The notes beneath the pieces are model-generated. The model ran no database searches. It was not told the DNA's origin and saw only the letters and a program-made list of their open reading frames with translations. From a virus (lineage: Duplodnaviria; Heunggongvirae; Uroviricota; Caudoviricetes), in IMG/VR virus record IMGVR_UViG_2737471828_000009, positions 1 to 31,064 of that record: a stretch of DNA of 31,064 nucleotides, one strand, 5' to 3'. Positions 7,911-16,226 of the stretch are shown here, in pieces (position 1 is the stretch's first letter; the number at the start of each line of letters is the position of its first letter). The position numbers were made by a program, and so were the translations under genes.

Positions 7911-8852
7911 ATGAGCACTAAATTAACCGGCTATGTATGGGATGGTTGCGCTGCATCAGGCATGAAGTTATCCAGCGTGGCAATTATGGCCCGCCTGGCT
8001 GATTTCAGTAATGACGAAGGTGTGTGCTGGCCATCAATTGAAACCATTGCCCGCCAGATTGGCGCGGGGATGAGTACCGTCAGAACGGCTATCGCACGGC
8101 TGGAAGCAGAAGGCTGGTTAACGCGTAAGGCGCGTCGCCAGGGTAACCGCAATGCGTCGAATGTTTATCAGCTTAACGTTGCGAAGCTTCAGGCAGCGGC
8201 ATTTTCTCAACTGTCAGATTCTGACCCGTCAAAATCTGACGCATCAAAATCTGACCCGTCAAAATTTGATGCGTCGAAATCTGGCAAAAAAGCGGGTTTT
8301 CACCCGTCAGAATCTGGCGGGGATCCGTCAGTAAAATCAAAACATGATCCGTCAGATAAAAAACCTTCTCGTCCGGACGCTTCGCAACCGGACACGCAGA
8401 CGGCTGAACAGGATTTTTTAACTCGCCATCCTGATGCGGTTGTATTCAGCCCTAAAAAGCGCCAGTGGGGGACGCAGGATGATTTGACCTGCGCACAGTG
8501 GCTCTGGAAAAAAATCATCGCCCTGTACGAGCAGGCTGCCGAATGTGACGGCGAGGTGGTTCGTCCCAAAGAACCGAACTGGACAGCCTGGGCAAACGAA
8601 ATTCGCCTGATGTGTGTGCAGGATGGTCGTACTCACAAACAAATCTGCGAGATGTACAGCCGCGTCAGCCGCGATCCGTTCTGGTGCCGTAACGTGCTCA
8701 GCCCGTCGAAGCTGCGGGAAAAATGGGATGAGCTTTCCCTGCGCTTATCGCCGTCCGTCAGCACGTACACCGAAAAACGCGAAGACCCGTACTTCAAAGC
8801 CAGTTACGACAACGTGGACTACAGCCAGATCCCGGCAGGATTCAGGGGGTGA
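7911..8852 (+). CDS. Replication initiator (O-like, N-terminal HTH) containing origin iterons
   Basis: N-terminal HTH region (SIETIARQIGAGMSTVRTAIARLEAEGWL), low-complexity linker encoded by iteron repeats, conserved C-terminal domain; located where lambdoid phages place gene O. Confidence 0.75.
   Translation: MSTKLTGYVWDGCAASGMKLSSVAIMARLADFSNDEGVCWPSIETIARQIGAGMSTVRTAIARLEAEGWLTRKARRQGNRNASNVYQLNVAKLQAAAFSQLSDSDPSKSDASKSDPSKFDASKSGKKAGFHPSESGGDPSVKSKHDPSDKKPSRPDASQPDTQTAEQDFLTRHPDAVVFSPKKRQWGTQDDLTCAQWLWKKIIALYEQAAECDGEVVRPKEPNWTAWANEIRLMCVQDGRTHKQICEMYSRVSRDPFWCRNVLSPSKLREKWDELSLRLSPSVSTYTEKREDPYFKASYDNVDYSQIPAGFRG
8212..8365. repeat. Iteron array (putative ori) inside the initiator gene
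   Basis: About six direct repeats with 18-19-bp periodicity and core CCGTCA(A/G)AATCTG (for example GACCCGTCAAAATCTGAC twice), followed by an A-rich stretch. Confidence 0.6.
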
Positions 8853-8854
8853 TC

Positions 8855-9343
8855 ATGAGTCTATTAAATGACGTTCAGAAATTCATTGAAGCCCATCCGG
8901 GGTGTACTTCCGGAGACATTGCAGATGCTTTTGCTGGTTACTCACGGCAGCGCGTTCTGCAGTCAGCAAGCAAGTTACGTCAGAGTGGGCGTGTGGCTCA
9001 CCGTTGTGAAGGGGATACACGCAGACATTTCCCGCGCCTGACTGAGAGAGCGCAGGAGCCGGAACCACAACCAGTTCGTGAAACCAGACCTGTGCGCAAT
9101 TTCTATGTCGGCACTAACGATCCCCAGGTGATTTTGTGCCTGACCCGCCAGGCGGAAGAACTGGAGTCCAGGGGCTTATTTCGTCGTGCTGCAACCGTGT
9201 GGATGGCGGCATTCCGTGAAAGCCACTCCCAGCCAGAACGAAACAATTTTCTGGCGCGTCGTGAGCGGTGCTTACGGAAAAGCAGCAAGCGCGCTGCATC
9301 GGGTGAAGAGTGGTATCTGTCAGGGAATTACGTGGGGGCTTAA
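8855..9343 (+). CDS. Hypothetical protein with winged-helix-like N-terminus
   Basis: ATG at 8855 preceded by GGGGG; 162 aa; sits where a helicase loader (P or DnaC-like) would be expected but does not resemble either. Confidence 0.5.
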   Translation: MSLLNDVQKFIEAHPGCTSGDIADAFAGYSRQRVLQSASKLRQSGRVAHRCEGDTRRHFPRLTERAQEPEPQPVRETRPVRNFYVGTNDPQVILCLTRQAEELESRGLFRRAATVWMAAFRESHSQPERNNFLARRERCLRKSSKRAASGEEWYLSGNYVGA

Positions 9344-9996
9344 TGAGTAATAAATATTGCCAGGCGCTGGTGGAACTGCGGAACAAACCAGCCCATGAAC
9401 TGAAGGACGTGGGCGATCAGTGGCGCACGCCGGACAACATTTTCTGGGGAATTAACACCCTGTTTGGCCCGTTTGTTCTGGATCTGTTCACTGACGGTGA
9501 TAACGCCAAATGTGCTGCGTATTACACGGCGGAAGACAACGCGCTGGCGCATGACTGGTCAGAACGTCTTGCGGAGCTTAAAGGTGCTGCCTTTGGTAAT
9601 CCCCCATACAGCCGCGCCAGTCAGCATGAGGGGCAATACATCACCGGCATGCGTTACATCATGAAGCATGCCAGTGCCATGCGTGATAAGGGCGGGCGCT
9701 ATGTTTTCCTGATCAAAGCTGCCACCAGCGAAGTTTGGTGGCCGGAAGATGCAGACCATATTGCTTTTATTCGCGGGCGTATTGGTTTTGAACTGCCTGC
9801 CTGGTTTATCCCGAAGGATGAGAAGCAGGTGCCGACAGGAGCGTTCTTCGCTGGTGCTATTGCTGTTTTCGACAAGACCTGGAAGGGACCGGCAATCAGC
9901 TACATCGGGCGCGATGAACTTGAGGCATGTGGTGAGGCGTTTCTGGCGCAGGTTCGCCAGCAGGCAGAAAAACTTGTCAGGGAGATGGCGGCATGA
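9343..9996 (+). CDS. dam: Phage Dam-family DNA N6-adenine methyltransferase
   Basis: NPPY catalytic motif (FGNPPYS) and conserved WRTPDNIFW... N-terminus; start ATG overlaps the upstream stop (TAATG), preceded by GGGGG. Confidence 0.8.
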   Translation: MSNKYCQALVELRNKPAHELKDVGDQWRTPDNIFWGINTLFGPFVLDLFTDGDNAKCAAYYTAEDNALAHDWSERLAELKGAAFGNPPYSRASQHEGQYITGMRYIMKHASAMRDKGGRYVFLIKAATSEVWWPEDADHIAFIRGRIGFELPAWFIPKDEKQVPTGAFFAGAIAVFDKTWKGPAISYIGRDELEACGEAFLAQVRQQAEKLVREMAA

Positions 9997-10319
9997 CGAC
10001 GTTAACCCAATGCCAGCAGCAGGTGCTGGATATGCTGATTTCTTACCAGCAAGAGCGTGGCTTTCCGCCAACCAATCAGGAGGTGGCAACCATGCTGGGA
10101 TACCGTTCAGTGAATGCAGCGGTGGAGCATCTTCGCGCACTGGAGAAAAAAGGCGTCATCACGATAAAGCGTGGCGTGGCCCGGGGGATAACGCTTCATA
10201 CCGCGGTGAAGGACGACGACAGCGAGGCGGTCGGGATTATCCGCGCACTGCTTGCCGGTGAGGAAAACGCCAGGCTGCGTGCAGCCCACTGGTTACATGA
10301 GAGGGAACTGAAAGTATGA
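9993..10319 (+). CDS. LexA N-terminal DNA-binding-domain homolog lacking the S24 peptidase domain
   Basis: Residues 1-70 align with the E. coli LexA N-terminal domain as recalled (ours QQQVLDML...GFPPTNQEVATMLGYRSVNAAVEHLRALEKKGVITIKRGVARGI versus LexA QQEVFDLI...[44 protein letters not shown]); only 108 aa, with no Ala-Gly cleavage site or Ser/Lys catalytic domain; overlaps Dam and RusA by 4 nt each. Confidence 0.7.
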   Translation: MTTLTQCQQQVLDMLISYQQERGFPPTNQEVATMLGYRSVNAAVEHLRALEKKGVITIKRGVARGITLHTAVKDDDSEAVGIIRALLAGEENARLRAAHWLHERELKV

Positions 10320-10711
10320 AGCTGATTCTGCCTTTTCCGCCCAGCGTGAACACGTACTGGCGACACCCCAACAAAGGGGCGTTTGCAGGTAAGAGCCTGA
10401 TAAGCGCGGCGGGGCGAAAATTCCAGAGCGCGGCGTGTGCAGCAATAGTTGAGCAGTTACGTCGTCTGCCAAAACCAACGTCGGCACCTGCTTCAGTGGA
10501 GATCGTGTTGTTTCCTCCAGATAACCGGATCCGCGATCTGGACAACTATAACAAGGCGCTGTTTGACGCCCTGACCCACGCTGGTGTGTGGGAAGACGAC
10601 AGTCAGGTGAAAAGAATGCTGGTGGAGTGGGGACCGGTTATCCCGGAGGGGAAGGTCGAGATCACTATCAGTAAGTACGAAAAAGCGAGTTGCAAATTAG
10701 CAACTCGGTAA
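10316..10711 (+). CDS. rusA: RusA-family Holliday junction resolvase
   Basis: 131 aa with characteristic RusA motifs (LPFPPSVNTYWRH ... DLDNYNKALFDALTHAGVWEDDSQV). Confidence 0.85.
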   Translation: MKLILPFPPSVNTYWRHPNKGAFAGKSLISAAGRKFQSAACAAIVEQLRRLPKPTSAPASVEIVLFPPDNRIRDLDNYNKALFDALTHAGVWEDDSQVKRMLVEWGPVIPEGKVEITISKYEKASCKLATR

Positions 10712-13110: not shown

Positions 13111-13557
13111 TTATATGTGGGGTAATATCCAGTTTATTTTCCTCCAGGTACTTGCAAATGAAACTATTGATACGATCAGGGTCGAGAAACCATATAAGGT
13201 TAGGGCGAAATCAAGTCTTACAGAGGTAATGGTGATTTTTTCATTTATAAACATTGCTATCAGCGGGAAAATACATGCTAATATTAAGGTAACTCCCGTA
13301 GATAACAGGTTATGAATAATTTTAGGTAAAATCTTGTTTTGTTTTAAAGCAAAAATAATTCCATCAGTACTTGAACTTGCAGAACTGAAGATGGAAATAG
13401 CGGCCAATACAAAACCAAACAAAATGCCTGCCACCGTAGATAACACTCCGGCTGTACTTAAGATATCAGAGTGAGCCATAGGCGCTAGGTATTTCCCAAG
13501 CACCCAAGCTAACAGCCCACTGATAACTATGTTAATTAAAACTTTAATAAGCATAAT
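13111..13557 (-). CDS. Small integral membrane protein with four predicted TM helices (RexB-like architecture)
   Basis: About 148-150 aa; four hydrophobic segments (approximately residues 3-23, 34-59, 81-105, 117-137); AT-rich; 14-nt gap after the upstream gene; the start may be the third Met (AAGG at 6 nt spacing). Confidence 0.6.
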   Translation of the reverse strand: MMLIKVLINIVISGLLAWVLGKYLAPMAHSDILSTAGVLSTVAGILFGFVLAAISIFSSASSSTDGIIFALKQNKILPKIIHNLLSTGVTLILACIFPLIAMFINEKITITSVRLDFALTLYGFSTLIVSIVSFASTWRKINWILPHI

Positions 13558-13577
13558 CATCATCCTTAAAAATAAGA

Positions 13578-14510
13578 TCAGATTTCATATTGCTTTAAAT
13601 ACTGACCATGTTCAATTTTAGCACTGATCAAGGCAGTACGCACATCTGTTTCTTTTGCGTAGCCATCTTTTGTGTTAATGTTTTTTTCACTGATCAGAAC
13701 TTGATTGAGAAGACTCCTTGAATGAGTATTTTTAGGTTCAGTGACATTAGCTTTACGTAATAAGTGAGGAACTTTTTCTATTAATTCCTTTATTCCACTT
13801 TTTACTTCATCACTGAGATAACCACGGATTAATTTACGTTGCGATGCTCTACCTCTAAGTGATAGTTTTAAATGCGAACCGCCCATCCCAGCCATCATTT
13901 CAATCATACTTTTGGAAAATGAATTCGAAAGGTCATAATCCGTTGCGCTAAAATTACGTGGAGCGGCGAGTGTAATTTCACAGCTACGTAAAGTGCTTCC
14001 TGTTTCAAGTAGTTCTTTTACACTTTCTTTTTTCCAAATTGCCTCAAACGCTACAGGTTTGTTTTCTTCAGAAAAATTGAATAAAAGAAATGCTAAATCG
14101 GAAACTTTAGGTCCTAAATGATTTTGAGATAAAACAAGAATGTCTTTCTTATAGTAGTAAATAAAATAAGTGCGTTCGACTATATATTTTTTATCATCTA
14201 ACGGAATATTGTGCTCATCCCAATTTTCATCACCAATATAAGGTAAGTGGAAACCATCACGAGAGCATGATAGATAACCAAAATAGAACTCCGCCTGTGC
14301 GTCTTTTTCTAAGAATACAACCTTTAATTTTTTCTTATCAAACTCAGCGGTATAAGAATTTTGCGAAGGTGTAACAATGGTTGTATACATGTTGTCAAAT
14401 GCAAGTTGTGCATTTGATGTAGTTGACTTCGTTCCTGAGGAGCTTTGGAAGAAACCGATACGCATTTTTTTTTGTTTAGTTAGTGGCGCGGAAGTGGCTG
14501 TAGTAGTCAT
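13578..14510 (-). CDS. Soluble 310-aa protein, first gene of the counter-oriented two-gene cassette (candidate abortive-infection sensor, RexA-like architecture)
   Basis: ATG 14510 preceded by AAAGGG at about 8 nt; AT-rich; forms a tight operon with the downstream membrane protein; no catalytic motif recognised. Confidence 0.6.
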   Translation of the reverse strand: MTTTATSAPLTKQKKMRIGFFQSSSGTKSTTSNAQLAFDNMYTTIVTPSQNSYTAEFDKKKLKVVFLEKDAQAEFYFGYLSCSRDGFHLPYIGDENWDEHNIPLDDKKYIVERTYFIYYYKKDILVLSQNHLGPKVSDLAFLLFNFSEENKPVAFEAIWKKESVKELLETGSTLRSCEITLAAPRNFSATDYDLSNSFSKSMIEMMAGMGGSHLKLSLRGRASQRKLIRGYLSDEVKSGIKELIEKVPHLLRKANVTEPKNTHSRSLLNQVLISEKNINTKDGYAKETDVRTALISAKIEHGQYLKQYEI

Positions 14511-15164: not shown

Positions 15165-16226
15165 ATGAAAAATACTGTAAAAATAAACAGTGTTGATTTA
15201 ATCAACGCTGATTGCCTGCATTTTATTCAGTCCCTGCCTGATGATTCCATTGACCTGATTGTTACCGATCCGCCGTACTTCAAGGTGAAACCCAACGGCT
15301 GGGACAATCAGTGGAAAGGGGACGAAGATTACCTTAAGTGGCTGGACCACTGTCTGGCCCAGTTCTGGCGGGTGTTAAAGCCTGCCGGAAGCCTTTACCT
15401 GTTCTGTGGGCATCGCCTGGCATCTGATATTGAGATCATGATGCGTGAACGTTTCAACGTGCTTAACCATATCATCTGGGCGAAGCCGTCCGGACGTTGG
15501 AATGGGTGTAATAAAGAAAGTCTGCGCGCATATTTTCCTGCCACAGAGCGCGTTCTGTTTGCTGAACATTACCAGGGGCCATATCGCGGCAAAAGTGACG
15601 GCTATGCGGCAAAAGAAAGGGAACTCAAACAGCATATAATGGCACCGCTGATATCGTATTTCAGGGATGCTCGTGCCGAACTGGGTATAACGGCAAAACA
15701 AATTGCCGAAGTCACAGGTAAGAAAAATATGGTTTCCCACTGGTTTGGTGCCAGTCAGTGGCAGTTGCCGAATGAGGCTGACTATCGGAAGTTACAGGCA
15801 CTTTTTTCCCGTATAGCGGCAGAGAAGTTTCAGGAACAACAGCTGGAACAACCACACCACCAACTGGTGGCATCTTATGATTCACTGAATCGCAAATATT
15901 CTGAATTGCTGGATGAGTTTAAATCTCTCCGTCGCTATTTCTCCGTATCAGTCTCCGTGCCTTATACCGATGTCTGGATGCATAAACCCGTTCAGTTCTA
16001 CCCGGGCAAACATCCGTGTGAGAAACCGGCGGATATGCTCAGGCAAATAATCAATGCCAGTAGTCGACCTGGCGATCTGGTTGCTGATTTCTTTATGGGA
16101 TCCGGTTCCACAATAAAAGCAGCAATGGCGCTGGGGCGTCGGGCATTAGGTGTTGAGCTTGAGACAGAACGGTTCAATAAGACCATTCAGGAAATCAGTA
16201 TGTTATCAGCAAATACAATTTTGTGA
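15165..16226 (+). CDS. Orphan DNA methyltransferase (beta-class N6-adenine/N4-cytosine type)
   Basis: N-terminal catalytic motif IV DPPY (LIVTDPPYF) and C-terminal AdoMet motif I (FFMGSGST); no restriction endonuclease gene nearby. Confidence 0.8.
   Translation: MKNTVKINSVDLINADCLHFIQSLPDDSIDLIVTDPPYFKVKPNGWDNQWKGDEDYLKWLDHCLAQFWRVLKPAGSLYLFCGHRLASDIEIMMRERFNVLNHIIWAKPSGRWNGCNKESLRAYFPATERVLFAEHYQGPYRGKSDGYAAKERELKQHIMAPLISYFRDARAELGITAKQIAEVTGKKNMVSHWFGASQWQLPNEADYRKLQALFSRIAAEKFQEQQLEQPHHQLVASYDSLNRKYSELLDEFKSLRRYFSVSVSVPYTDVWMHKPVQFYPGKHPCEKPADMLRQIINASSRPGDLVADFFMGSGSTIKAAMALGRRALGVELETERFNKTIQEISMLSANTIL

What the first reader, a model, noticed from the sequence alone, without database searches (positions are those of the whole stretch)
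8212..8365. Iteron array (putative replication origin) embedded in the coding sequence of the initiator gene
About six direct repeats of roughly 18-19 bp with core CCGTCA(A/G)AATCTG lie inside the replication initiator gene, where they encode a low-complexity S/D/K/P-rich linker, and are followed by an A-rich stretch. This mirrors lambda ori inside gene O (initiator-binding iterons plus an AT-rich DNA-unwinding element), but with a different repeat sequence, implying a distinct initiator specificity. No recognisable P-like or DnaC-like loader follows; instead there is an unknown 162-aa winged-helix-like protein.
Basis: seen in the sequence. Interest (0 to 1): 0.45.

Follow-up and report, generated by a model that had tools for sequence, protein, structure and literature searches.

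The report
Replication origin inside a prophage initiator gene
A cluster of short palindromic DNA repeats inside the replication-initiator gene of a very common E. coli/Shigella prophage is conserved as DNA rather than as protein, so it is almost certainly the phage's replication origin, built like phage lambda's but with different repeats and no phage-encoded helicase loader.

Summary
The repeats are real and far beyond chance. The period is 15 bp, not 18-19 bp. There are five tandem units (8211-8285), a sixth isolated unit (8304-8318) and two half-sites (8322-8331, 8346-8355). Each unit carries the dyad TCAGAwTCTGA. They lie in the linker of a 313-aa initiator (7911-8852) of an SfII/SfIV/CPS-53-type lambdoid prophage.

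In 66 relatives from many Enterobacterales genera, third codon positions are 71-83% conserved in the repeat block, against 38-48% in the flanking DNA-binding domain. Codon choice is fixed (Lys AAA 234, AAG 0) while the encoded residues vary. In phage phiP27 a 1-nt deletion puts the sixth unit in another reading frame with the DNA kept.

The N-terminal winged-helix domain and the array are inherited together and recombine with at least three unrelated C-terminal domains. Distant relatives carry different arrays at the same position.

The window's C-terminal domain is homologous to lambda O's P-binding domain (E 7e-26), yet no P, DnaC or DnaB homologue is present. The AT-rich unwinding element is weak.

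Unexpectedly, the protein ends in SQIPAGFRG, which matches the extreme C-terminus of host DnaT.

Verdict: a new member of a known kind. Origin function is inferred, not shown.

The parts
7911..8852 (+). Replication initiator gene (313 aa), yfdO / SfII-SfIV 'replication protein O' type
   Evidence: ORF. phrog_391 'replication initiation O-like', E 8e-136. 98% nt identity to SfII, SfIV and many E. coli phages.
7977..8120 (+). Winged-helix DNA-binding domain (Pfam HTH_36, aa 23-70): the presumed iteron reader
   Evidence: PF13730, 42.9 bits against a cutoff of 25. Weaker GntR, MarR and DnaD_N matches. MarR-type PDB hits. The recognition helix STVRTAI and the wing RRxGNRNxSN are conserved in all relatives that share the iteron, and differ in relatives with other arrays.
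8211..8285 (.). Five tandem 15-bp iteron units (NNN TCA AAA TCT GAC), each with the dyad TCAGAwTCTGA
   Evidence: Position matrix from 398 units in 68 arrays. Third-codon-position identity 0.71 here against 0.38-0.48 in the N-terminal domain.
8286..8303 (.). Spacer AAAAAAGCGGGTTTTCAC (A6 ... T4). The 3' part GTTTTCAC is highly conserved.
   Evidence: Per-column conservation. Site of the 1-nt deletion in phiP27 that shifts the reading frame.
8304..8318 (.). Isolated sixth iteron unit, CCGTCAGAATCTGGC
   Evidence: Zero-mismatch motif hit. At least 90% conserved at nearly every position in 67 sequences. Read in a different frame in phiP27 (PSESG against LQNLD).
8322..8331 (.). Half-site 1, GATCCGTCAG (contains a GATC)
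   Evidence: Direct repeat D4. At least 90% conserved.
8346..8355 (.). Half-site 2, GATCCGTCAG (contains a GATC)
   Evidence: Direct repeat D4. Mostly conserved.
8332..8364 (.). A-rich, locally least stable segment: candidate but weak DNA-unwinding element
   Evidence: 30-mer dG -35.2 kcal/mol, z = 2.0. 60% AT. Its sequence, not only its composition, is conserved.
8418..8741 (+). C-terminal domain homologous to the C-terminal (P-binding) domain of lambda O
   Evidence: BLASTP against lambda O, E 7e-26, window aa 70-277 against O aa 78-270. A profile built from this type retrieves lambda O. AlphaFold2 model is a helical bundle, pLDDT 77. No convincing PDB fold match.
8823..8849 (+). Extreme C-terminal peptide SQIPAGFRG, which mimics the C-terminal tail of host DnaT (SQIPPGFRG)
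   Evidence: 8/9 identical, both at the very C-terminus. Relatives' tails hit the NCBIfam DnaT model at positions 152-179/179, E 5e-5. Present on 45 of 70 relatives, across three unrelated C-domains.
8855..9343 (+). Downstream neighbour: PerC-family (YfdN-type) putative transcription activator. It is not a helicase loader and is not consistently linked to the initiator.
   Evidence: PF06069 PerC, 34.5 bits against a cutoff of 22.6. phrog_1324. Detected by tblastn in only 16 of 66 related loci.

Best explanation
The array at 8211-8357 is the replication origin of this lambdoid prophage, embedded in the linker-coding part of its own initiator gene.

Proposed mechanism, with the status of each step:
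1. Dimers of the initiator's N-terminal winged-helix domain bind the 11-bp dyads TCAGAwTCTGA in the five tandem units and the sixth unit. The two GATCCGTCAG half-sites flank the A-rich segment (inferred).
2. Because units are 15 bp apart (about 1.4 helical turns), neighbouring dimers sit on roughly opposite faces of the helix. Every second unit is nearly in phase, which fits the 30-bp super-period (inferred).
3. This nucleoprotein complex, helped by rightward transcription through the gene, destabilises the adjacent low-stability segment 8332-8364 (inferred).
4. The lambda-O-like C-terminal domain and the DnaT-like C-terminal tail then recruit the host DnaB-DnaC helicase-loading machinery directly, because the phage encodes no P, DnaC or DnaB of its own (inferred).

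Shown here:
- The repeats exist.
- They are under DNA-level rather than peptide-level selection.
- They are co-inherited and co-vary with the DNA-binding domain.
- The C-terminal domain is homologous to lambda O's.
- No loader gene is present.

Inferred: binding, unwinding, the exact start site, and how the helicase is recruited.
For: 1. Non-random, tightly clustered repeats.

2. DNA-level constraint. In 398 units from 68 distinct arrays:
- The first Ser codon is TCA in 355 of 371 cases (background 16%).
- Lys is AAA 234 times and AAG 0 times (background AAG 38%).
- Glu is GAA 88 times and GAG 0 times.
- The second Ser codon is TCT in 262 of 304 cases (background 9%).
- The encoded residues meanwhile vary: K/E/D/N and S/F/P/H/Y/T.
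- Third-position identity to the window is 0.83 in the unique block and 0.71 in the tandem units, against 0.38-0.48 in the N-terminal domain. Positions 1 and 2 are about equal everywhere.

3. In phiP27 a 1-nt deletion moves the sixth unit into another frame. The DNA is conserved and the peptide is not.

4. The motif occurs 2-10 times in nearly all of about 66 relatives with at least 72% N-terminal identity. It is almost never found elsewhere in the 6.3-kb loci.

5. Modularity:
- mEp460 has the same C-terminal half (97% nt identity from about 8359) but a different N-terminal domain and a different 23-bp array.
- Stx2c phages have a third N-terminal domain and array.
- The window-type N-terminus plus array is joined to three unrelated C-domains.

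6. Distant HTH_36 initiators each carry their own array at nt 280-440 of the gene. Their recognition helices differ accordingly.

7. The position matches ori lambda in gene O, whose annotated iterons lie at O nt 349-433. The C-terminal domain is homologous to lambda O.

8. No P, DnaC or DnaB homologue is found in the window.
Against: - There is no experiment: binding and initiation are not shown.
- The flanking AT-rich element is weak, 60% AT and z = 2.0, whereas lambda's is pronounced.
- The 15-bp spacing puts adjacent sites out of helical phase, unlike lambda's spacing of about two turns. The complex may therefore differ from an O-some.
- The window covers only 31 kb of the prophage, so a loader encoded elsewhere cannot be fully excluded.
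- The same sites could also, or instead, serve autoregulation or copy control.
Confidence: 0.8

Rival explanations
1. The sites are real initiator-binding sites, but they act in autoregulation, copy control or incompatibility (titration, a transcription roadblock inside the gene). Initiation itself starts elsewhere.
For: Iterons in plasmids also act in copy control (established knowledge). The unwinding element next to the array is weak. None of the comparative data distinguish binding for initiation from binding for regulation.
Against: No other repeat array or iteron-like cluster exists in the 31-kb window. The position is equivalent to ori lambda. The array is always coupled to an initiator-type protein. 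The conserved unique block 8295-8357 lies beyond the tandem sites.
Confidence: 0.1
2. The repeats are only a protein-level low-complexity linker that arose by recent slippage. The DNA has no function.
For: The array is always in frame in the window-type relatives and encodes a plausible flexible S/D/K/P linker. Copy number varies from 2 to 10.
Against: Synonymous positions are as conserved as non-synonymous ones across genera, while the amino acids vary. The DNA is kept across a frameshift in phiP27. The control region shows saturated synonymous sites.
Confidence: 0.03
3. The conserved DNA encodes an RNA structure, a cruciform, or a recombination 'boundary sequence' for module exchange. It is not a protein-binding origin.
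For: Both strands fold far better than shuffles, z -5.7 and -5.0. Recombination junctions lie directly 3' of the block. There is a terminator-like hairpin on the minus strand at 8306-8293.
Against: The folding follows trivially from tandem palindromic units. Stem positions are invariant rather than co-varying. The spacer triplets that extend the hairpins in the window are not conserved. The only Rfam match is a spurious miRNA model far below its threshold. The left arm of the terminator-like hairpin is not conserved.
Confidence: 0.04
4. The repeats are bound by a different protein, such as the PerC-like YfdN, the cII-type activator or a host factor, rather than by the initiator.
For: No binding data exist. 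YfdN has an N-terminal winged-helix-like region.
Against: The array co-segregates with the initiator's N-terminal domain, not with its neighbours. By tblastn, YfdN is detected in 16, the upstream 112-aa ORF in 25 and cII in 50 of 66 related loci. mEp460 and the Stx2c phages keep YfdN but carry different arrays. No DnaA box lies within 8000-9500.
Confidence: 0.03

Closest known systems
ori lambda inside gene O of phage lambda (O-some, O-P-DnaB pathway)
   Same: Initiator-binding repeats with internal dyad symmetry lie in the linker-coding middle of the initiator gene, with an A/T-richer segment to their right (PMC7466680). The N-terminal domain plus iterons form the specificity module. The C-terminal domain is homologous, E 7e-26. 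The gene order cI - cro - cII - initiator and rightward transcription through the origin are also shared.
   Different: The N-terminal DNA-binding domain belongs to another family: HTH_36 (PF13730) against Phage_rep_O (PF04492). The iteron sequence and geometry differ: 15-bp period with an 11-bp dyad, against roughly 18-bp sites 20-24 bp apart. The AT-rich element is weak. There is no P gene. A DnaT-like C-terminal tail is present that lambda O lacks.
Other lambdoid replication modules (P22 gene 18/12, phiP27 L17-DnaC-helicase, Rac YdaU-YdaV)
   Same: Same mosaic logic: an initiator carrying its own in-gene array, with exchangeable partner-specific C-termini. phiP27 L17 shares the N-terminal domain (60% identity) and the iteron core.
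   Different: Those modules encode their own helicase or a DnaC-like loader. The window's module has none.
Iteron-type plasmid replicons (pSC101, R6K, RK2, P1, F)
   Same: Tandem direct repeats are bound by a winged-helix Rep or initiator. Copy number of the repeats varies. A role in specificity or incompatibility is likely (established knowledge).
   Different: Plasmid iterons are usually 17-22 bp at a spacing of about two helical turns, lie outside the rep gene, and work with DnaA boxes and a clear AT-rich DUE. Here the period is 15 bp, the array is inside the ORF, and there is no DnaA box within 8000-9500.
E. coli DnaT (primosomal protein I)
   Same: The last nine residues are nearly identical and terminal in both proteins, SQIPAGFRG against SQIPPGFRG. 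This explains the database label 'primosomal protein I' on these phage proteins.
   Different: There is no similarity outside the tail. The window protein gives no NCBIfam DnaT hit at E <= 0.01. A relative's tail scores 23 bits against a cutoff of 201. It is not a DnaT homologue.

Membership tests
Lambdoid 'origin inside the initiator gene' (ori lambda type) | A cluster of repeated sites inside the initiator ORF, between the DNA-binding domain and the C-terminal domain | tested here: met
   Units at codons 101-149 of a 313-codon gene. Lambda iterons lie at the equivalent place.
Lambdoid 'origin inside the initiator gene' (ori lambda type) | Each site has internal two-fold symmetry, so that it can bind an initiator dimer | tested here: met
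   Dyad TCAGAwTCTGA. The position matrix shows complementary conservation of positions 4-8 and 10-14.
Lambdoid 'origin inside the initiator gene' (ori lambda type) | The repeats are selected as DNA and coupled to the initiator's N-terminal domain | tested here: met
   Codon-position and codon-choice tests. Frameshift in phiP27. Module swaps.
Lambdoid 'origin inside the initiator gene' (ori lambda type) | A pronounced AT-rich DNA-unwinding element next to the iterons | tested here: inconclusive
   Only a 30-bp segment with z = 2.0 and 60% AT.
Lambdoid 'origin inside the initiator gene' (ori lambda type) | The initiator binds the repeats and replication starts there | not testable with these tools
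   Needs EMSA or footprinting, ori cloning, or marker-frequency mapping.
Lambda O/P replication module | N-terminal domain of the Phage_rep_O family (PF04492) | tested here: not met
   The window protein hits PF13730 HTH_36, not PF04492. Lambda O hits PF04492. BLASTP aligns only from window aa 70 onward.
Lambda O/P replication module | C-terminal domain homologous to lambda O's C-terminal domain | tested here: met
   E 7e-26 by BLASTP. Profile search.
Lambda O/P replication module | Partner gene P (PF06992) next to the initiator | tested here: not met
   tblastn with lambda P and a P-like protein against the window gives only E > 1. None of the 15 relatives with the lambda-O-like C-domain has a P homologue.
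HTH_36-type phage replication initiators (PF13730; phrog_391) | Winged-helix HTH_36 domain above Pfam's gathering score, and a full-length match to the PHROG family | tested here: met
   42.9 bits against a cutoff of 25. phrog_391, E 8e-136 over residues 1-313.
Plasmid-type iteron replicon | Iterons outside the rep gene at helical-repeat spacing, with DnaA boxes and an AT-rich DUE | tested here: not met
   In-gene array with a 15-bp period. No DnaA box within 8000-9500. Weak DUE.
DnaT (primosomal protein I) | Full-length match to the DnaT family model (three-helix-bundle ssDNA-binding C-terminal domain plus N-terminal domain) | tested here: not met
   No NCBIfam DnaT hit for the window protein. 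Only the last 9 residues match. A relative's tail scores 23 bits against a cutoff of 201.
PerC family (downstream 162-aa protein) | PerC domain above the gathering score | tested here: met
   PF06069, 34.5 bits against 22.6.

The most novel reading that the evidence does not exclude
These 'solo' initiators dispense with a phage helicase loader because their extreme C-terminus copies the flexible C-terminal tail of host DnaT (…SQIPxGFRG-COOH). That tail would be a portable docking peptide for the host helicase-loading machinery: DnaC/DnaB or PriA/PriB. The same tail sits on three unrelated C-terminal domains in this family and on initiators of other enterobacterial phages (SPN1S, Rac YdaU, Gifsy, Stx phages). 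If true, it would assign a function to the DnaT tail, whose partner is not known. It would also reveal a widespread viral mimicry route into the replication-restart primosome.
Probability: 0.3. Interest if true: 0.7.

Novelty: new member of a known kind. Interest (0 to 1): 0.42.

Why it matters
- **Prevalence.** This origin segment is present in 1,950 of 5,426 complete E. coli genomes. It also occurs in prophages of many Enterobacterales genera. In every record inspected the region is annotated only as coding sequence (helix-turn-helix protein, 'replication protein O' or 'primosomal protein').
- **Practical use.** Defining the origin and its specificity module gives a handle for predicting replicon incompatibility between co-resident prophages. 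It would also help in building phage-derived vectors and in interpreting mosaic boundaries.
- **Open question.** The combination of a lambda-O-type C-terminal domain, no P protein and a DnaT-like terminal peptide raises a testable question: how do such 'initiator-only' modules load the host helicase?

Tried and rejected
- **Literature.** Searches for SfII/SfIV/SfV origins, yfdO/CPS-53, 'initiator-solo', the non-lambdoid Stx replication regions, and the literal iteron and tail sequences found no description of these iterons or of the tail.
- **Solved structures.** A PDB sequence search with the whole protein and with a C-domain profile gave only weak MarR-type winged-helix hits.
- **RNA.** Rfam gave only a spurious miRNA hit. 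The strong RNA and DNA folding z-scores are a by-product of tandem palindromes.
- **DnaA boxes.** None lie near the array.
- **A clustering error, corrected.** My first clustering of C-terminal domains wrongly merged three types through shared tails. Searches corrected this.
- **Tail versus loader.** I tested whether the DnaT-like tail is exclusive to loader-less modules. Within this family the three loci with a loader lack it. But Rac YdaU has the tail and is followed by a DnaC-like gene, so exclusivity is rejected.
- **Linked neighbour genes.** The upstream 112-aa ORF, YfdN and the Dam-like methylase are each present in only part of the relatives, so none is an obligatory partner.

Full report
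**1. What the window is.**
The region around the finding is the early-right operon of a lambdoid prophage. It contains:
- a cI-type repressor (6006-6680, minus strand)
- a cII/CP76-type activator (7003-7566)
- an unknown 112-aa ORF (7563-7901)
- a 313-aa initiator (7911-8852)
- a PerC-family protein (8855-9343)
- a Dam-type methyltransferase (9340-9996)
- a LexA-N-terminal-domain-only protein (9993-10319)
- RusA (10316-10711)
- KilA-N/Ant, DUF968 and Q

The initiator-PerC segment is 98% identical to Shigella phages SfII and SfIV and to many E. coli phages. There it is labelled 'replication protein O', 'primosomal protein' or YfdO/YfdN.

**2.
- TRF reports an array at 8220-8283 with period 15 and, better, period 30.
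- CCGTCARAATCTG with up to 2 mismatches hits 8 times in 31 kb. All hits lie within 8211-8320. Chance expectation is 1.5, and 0 of 100 shuffles reach 8.
- Read in register, there are five tandem 15-bp units (8211-8285), an 18-bp spacer, a sixth unit (8304-8318) and two half-sites GATCCGTCAG (8322-8331, 8346-8355).
The core, the count and the coordinates are right.
- Each unit is a variable triplet plus a 12-nt core with the dyad TCAGAwTCTGA.

**3. Is this a protein repeat or a DNA element?**
I fetched 79 loci encoding relatives of the N-terminal 100 residues, one per species, with 100% down to 34% identity.

The motif occurs 2-10 times at the same place in nearly all loci with at least 72% N-terminal identity. 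These span Citrobacter, Enterobacter, Kluyvera, Yersinia, Pantoea, Rahnella, Proteus, Providencia and others. It hardly ever occurs elsewhere in the 6.3-kb loci.

Codon choice in 398 units from 68 distinct arrays:

| Position | Observed | Background |
|---|---|---|
| First Ser | TCA in 355 of 371 | TCA 16% |
| Lys | AAA 234, AAG 0 | AAG 38% |
| Glu | GAA 88, GAG 0 | GAG 44% |
| Second Ser | TCT in 262 of 304 | TCT 9% |

The encoded residues meanwhile change freely: K/E/D/N, and S/F/P/H/Y/T. A single synonymous change would still have passed the 3-mismatch filter, so the absence of AAG and GAG is not a selection artefact.

Codon-position identity to the window:

| Region | Pos 1 | Pos 2 | Pos 3 |
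|---|---|---|---|
| N-terminal domain, codons 1-80 | 0.83 | 0.90 | 0.48 |
| End of the N-terminal domain | - | - | 0.38 |
| Unique block 8295-8345 | 0.89 | 0.90 | 0.83 |
| Tandem units | 0.82 | 0.88 | 0.71 |

So the codon periodicity of protein-level selection disappears in the array.

The clearest single case is phage phiP27. Its initiator, 60% identical in the N-terminal domain, has a 1-nt deletion in the spacer. The conserved TTTT(C/G)ACCC(G/T)TCAGAATCTGG is therefore read as KKTVLTLQNLD instead of KKAGFHPSESG. The DNA is kept and the peptide is not.

**4. Coupling to the initiator's DNA-binding domain.**
- Phage mEp460 shares the C-terminal half of the gene at 97% nt identity, starting at about 8359, directly after the last half-site. 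Its N-terminal domain is unrelated, and it has a different 23-bp, 5.4-copy array at the same position.
- Stx2c phages have a third N-terminal domain (HTH_36, 39% identity) with 21-24-bp repeats. They share only the last 25 codons plus the PerC gene.
- Distant HTH_36 initiators each carry their own array at nt 280-440 of the gene: Thermomonas (18 bp, 5.4 copies), Thorsellia (22 bp, 3.8 copies) and Phlomobacter (23 bp, 3.4 copies).
- The recognition helix and wing are conserved among all proteins that share the 15-bp iteron. They differ where the array differs. The Stx2c and Psychrobacter proteins share both a helix (SKRSV..HI) and a similar GGTAGTGCA-type repeat.
- Conversely, the window-type N-terminus plus array is joined to three unrelated C-terminal domains. 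These are a lambda-O-like domain (15 loci including the window), a TIGR02220 'conserved phage C-terminal domain' (the majority), and the phiP27 type.
- My first clustering wrongly merged these three types. That is corrected here.

**5. Relation to lambda.**
The window protein's residues 70-277 align with lambda O residues 78-270 (E 7e-26). The alignment is strongest over the C-terminal domain, which in lambda binds P (established knowledge).

The N-terminal domains belong to different Pfam families, PF13730 against PF04492. Lambda's annotated iterons lie at the equivalent place in O.

The protein is therefore a chimera: a lambda-O-type C-domain behind a different reader domain with its own iterons.

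**6. The loader question.**
- tblastn with lambda P, a P-like protein, a DnaC-like protein and a DnaB-like helicase finds nothing in the window.
- The early-left operon holds an exonuclease, a Mom-like protein, a phosphatase and unknown ORFs.
- None of the 15 relatives with the lambda-O-like C-domain has a P homologue within 3 kb.
- The gene after the initiator varies: Dam-type methylase, PerC-like, other methylases, KilA/Ant, DUF968. None of the neighbours is constant.
- The module is therefore initiator-only, and host DnaB-DnaC must be recruited in some other way. This last step is an inference.

**7. An unexpected lead on helicase recruitment.**
The protein ends in ...DYSQIPAGFRG. E. coli DnaT ends in ...PDSQIPPGFRG. 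Relatives with the TIGR02220 domain end in ...RERDINAISRPDTSIPPGFRG, which hits the NCBIfam DnaT model at positions 152-179 of 179 (E 5e-5).

Among 70 relatives:
- 45 carry this terminal GFRG tail, on all three unrelated C-domains.
- 18 carry another conserved tail.
- The three loci that have their own loader lack the GFRG tail.

The tail is not exclusive to loader-less modules. Rac YdaU has it and is followed by DnaC-like YdaV. SPN1S has it without a loader gene beside it.

A tblastn of the last 32 residues of DnaT against 50,697 phage records hits 48 records. Where the matched region is annotated, it is nearly always a replication initiator.

According to a review, the DnaT tail is a flexible segment of about 20 residues, and no DnaT-DnaC contact has been documented (PMC5778457). 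In the passages I read, the 2026 preprimosome cryo-EM paper does not discuss it (PMC13377028). No paper in the library contains the motif.

The tail explains the misleading 'primosomal protein I' labels. It also suggests mimicry of a host docking peptide. This is a hypothesis.

**8. Weak points.**
- The unwinding element is not convincing. 8332-8362 is only the second least stable 30-mer between 7000 and 10000 (z = 2.0), at 60% AT. Its sequence is nevertheless conserved.
- The 15-bp spacing puts adjacent dyads about 150 degrees apart on the helix, unlike lambda, so the architecture of the complex may differ.
- No binding or initiation data exist.
- The window lacks part of the prophage.

**9. 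Rivals.**
- A pure protein linker is contradicted by section 3.
- An RNA or cruciform element is unsupported. The strong folding follows from tandem palindromes. Stems show invariance rather than covariation. The spacer bases that lengthen the hairpins are not conserved. Rfam gives nothing real.
- Binding by another protein is unlikely, because the array follows the initiator's N-terminal domain and not any neighbour.
- The rival that remains open is that the sites act mainly in regulation or copy control while initiation occurs elsewhere. No alternative array exists in the window.

**10. Verdict.**
This is a lambda-style origin inside the initiator gene. It is a new member of a known kind, with well-supported DNA-level evidence and a defined specificity module. 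It is very widespread: 1,950 of 5,426 complete E. coli genomes. It is not annotated as an origin in any record I inspected.

The more novel aspects are the initiator-only design with a lambda-O-type C-domain and the DnaT-like terminal peptide.

Noticed in passing
window 8823-8849 (last 9 codons of the initiator); also L005, L086 (Rac ydaU), L087 (SPN1S): The initiator ends in SQIPAGFRG, nearly identical to the extreme C-terminus of host DnaT (SQIPPGFRG). The same terminal tail occurs on three unrelated C-terminal domains in this family and on replication initiators of other enterobacterial phages. The partner of the DnaT tail is not known.
   Followed up: partly
window 8322-8325 and 8346-8349; Dam-type methyltransferase gene 9340-9996: Two GATC sites lie inside the conserved origin block and are conserved in most relatives. 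A phage Dam-type methyltransferase gene lies next to or near the initiator in about half of the related loci (35 of 66). This hints at methylation-dependent control of the origin.
   Followed up: no
whole window: DnaA-box-like sequences (TTATCCACA, up to 1 mismatch) occur 15 times against about 7 expected (0 of 100 shuffles reach 15). Thirteen of the 15 are on the minus strand. None lies within 8000-9500.
   Followed up: no
window 8293-8306, minus strand: A terminator-like hairpin (CGGGTGAAAACCCG followed by CTTTTTTG) lies in the spacer between units 5 and 6. Its left arm is poorly conserved in relatives, so it is probably incidental.
   Followed up: partly
window 9993-10319: A 108-aa ORF consists only of a LexA N-terminal DNA-binding domain (PF01726, E 3e-19) and has no peptidase domain. 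It could compete for LexA boxes. It is conserved in mEp460 and the Stx2c phages.
   Followed up: no
L061 (Providencia) 3324-3480; all related loci: The iteron copy number varies from 2 to 10 among relatives. L061 has 10 units through duplication of a 60-nt block, which indicates slippage or unequal recombination in the array.
   Followed up: partly
L055 and L073 (E. coli chromosomes): These copies of the initiator gene are 99% identical only up to codon 79 and then continue into an unrelated 455-aa reading frame without iterons. They look like prophages broken by rearrangement inside the initiator gene.
   Followed up: no
window 13111-14510 (minus strand) and 15165-16226: Downstream of Q lie two leftward ORFs (150 aa with no family; 310 aa DUF6731) and an N6/N4 DNA methylase. 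These look like moron or defence-type cargo in the late-operon leader.
   Followed up: no
plasmid records CP085522.1 (41.5 kb) and NZ_CP081716.1 (37.7 kb): Phage-sized circular 'plasmid' records from E. coli carry this origin block at 92% identity. They may be excised or episomally replicating forms of such prophages.
   Followed up: no
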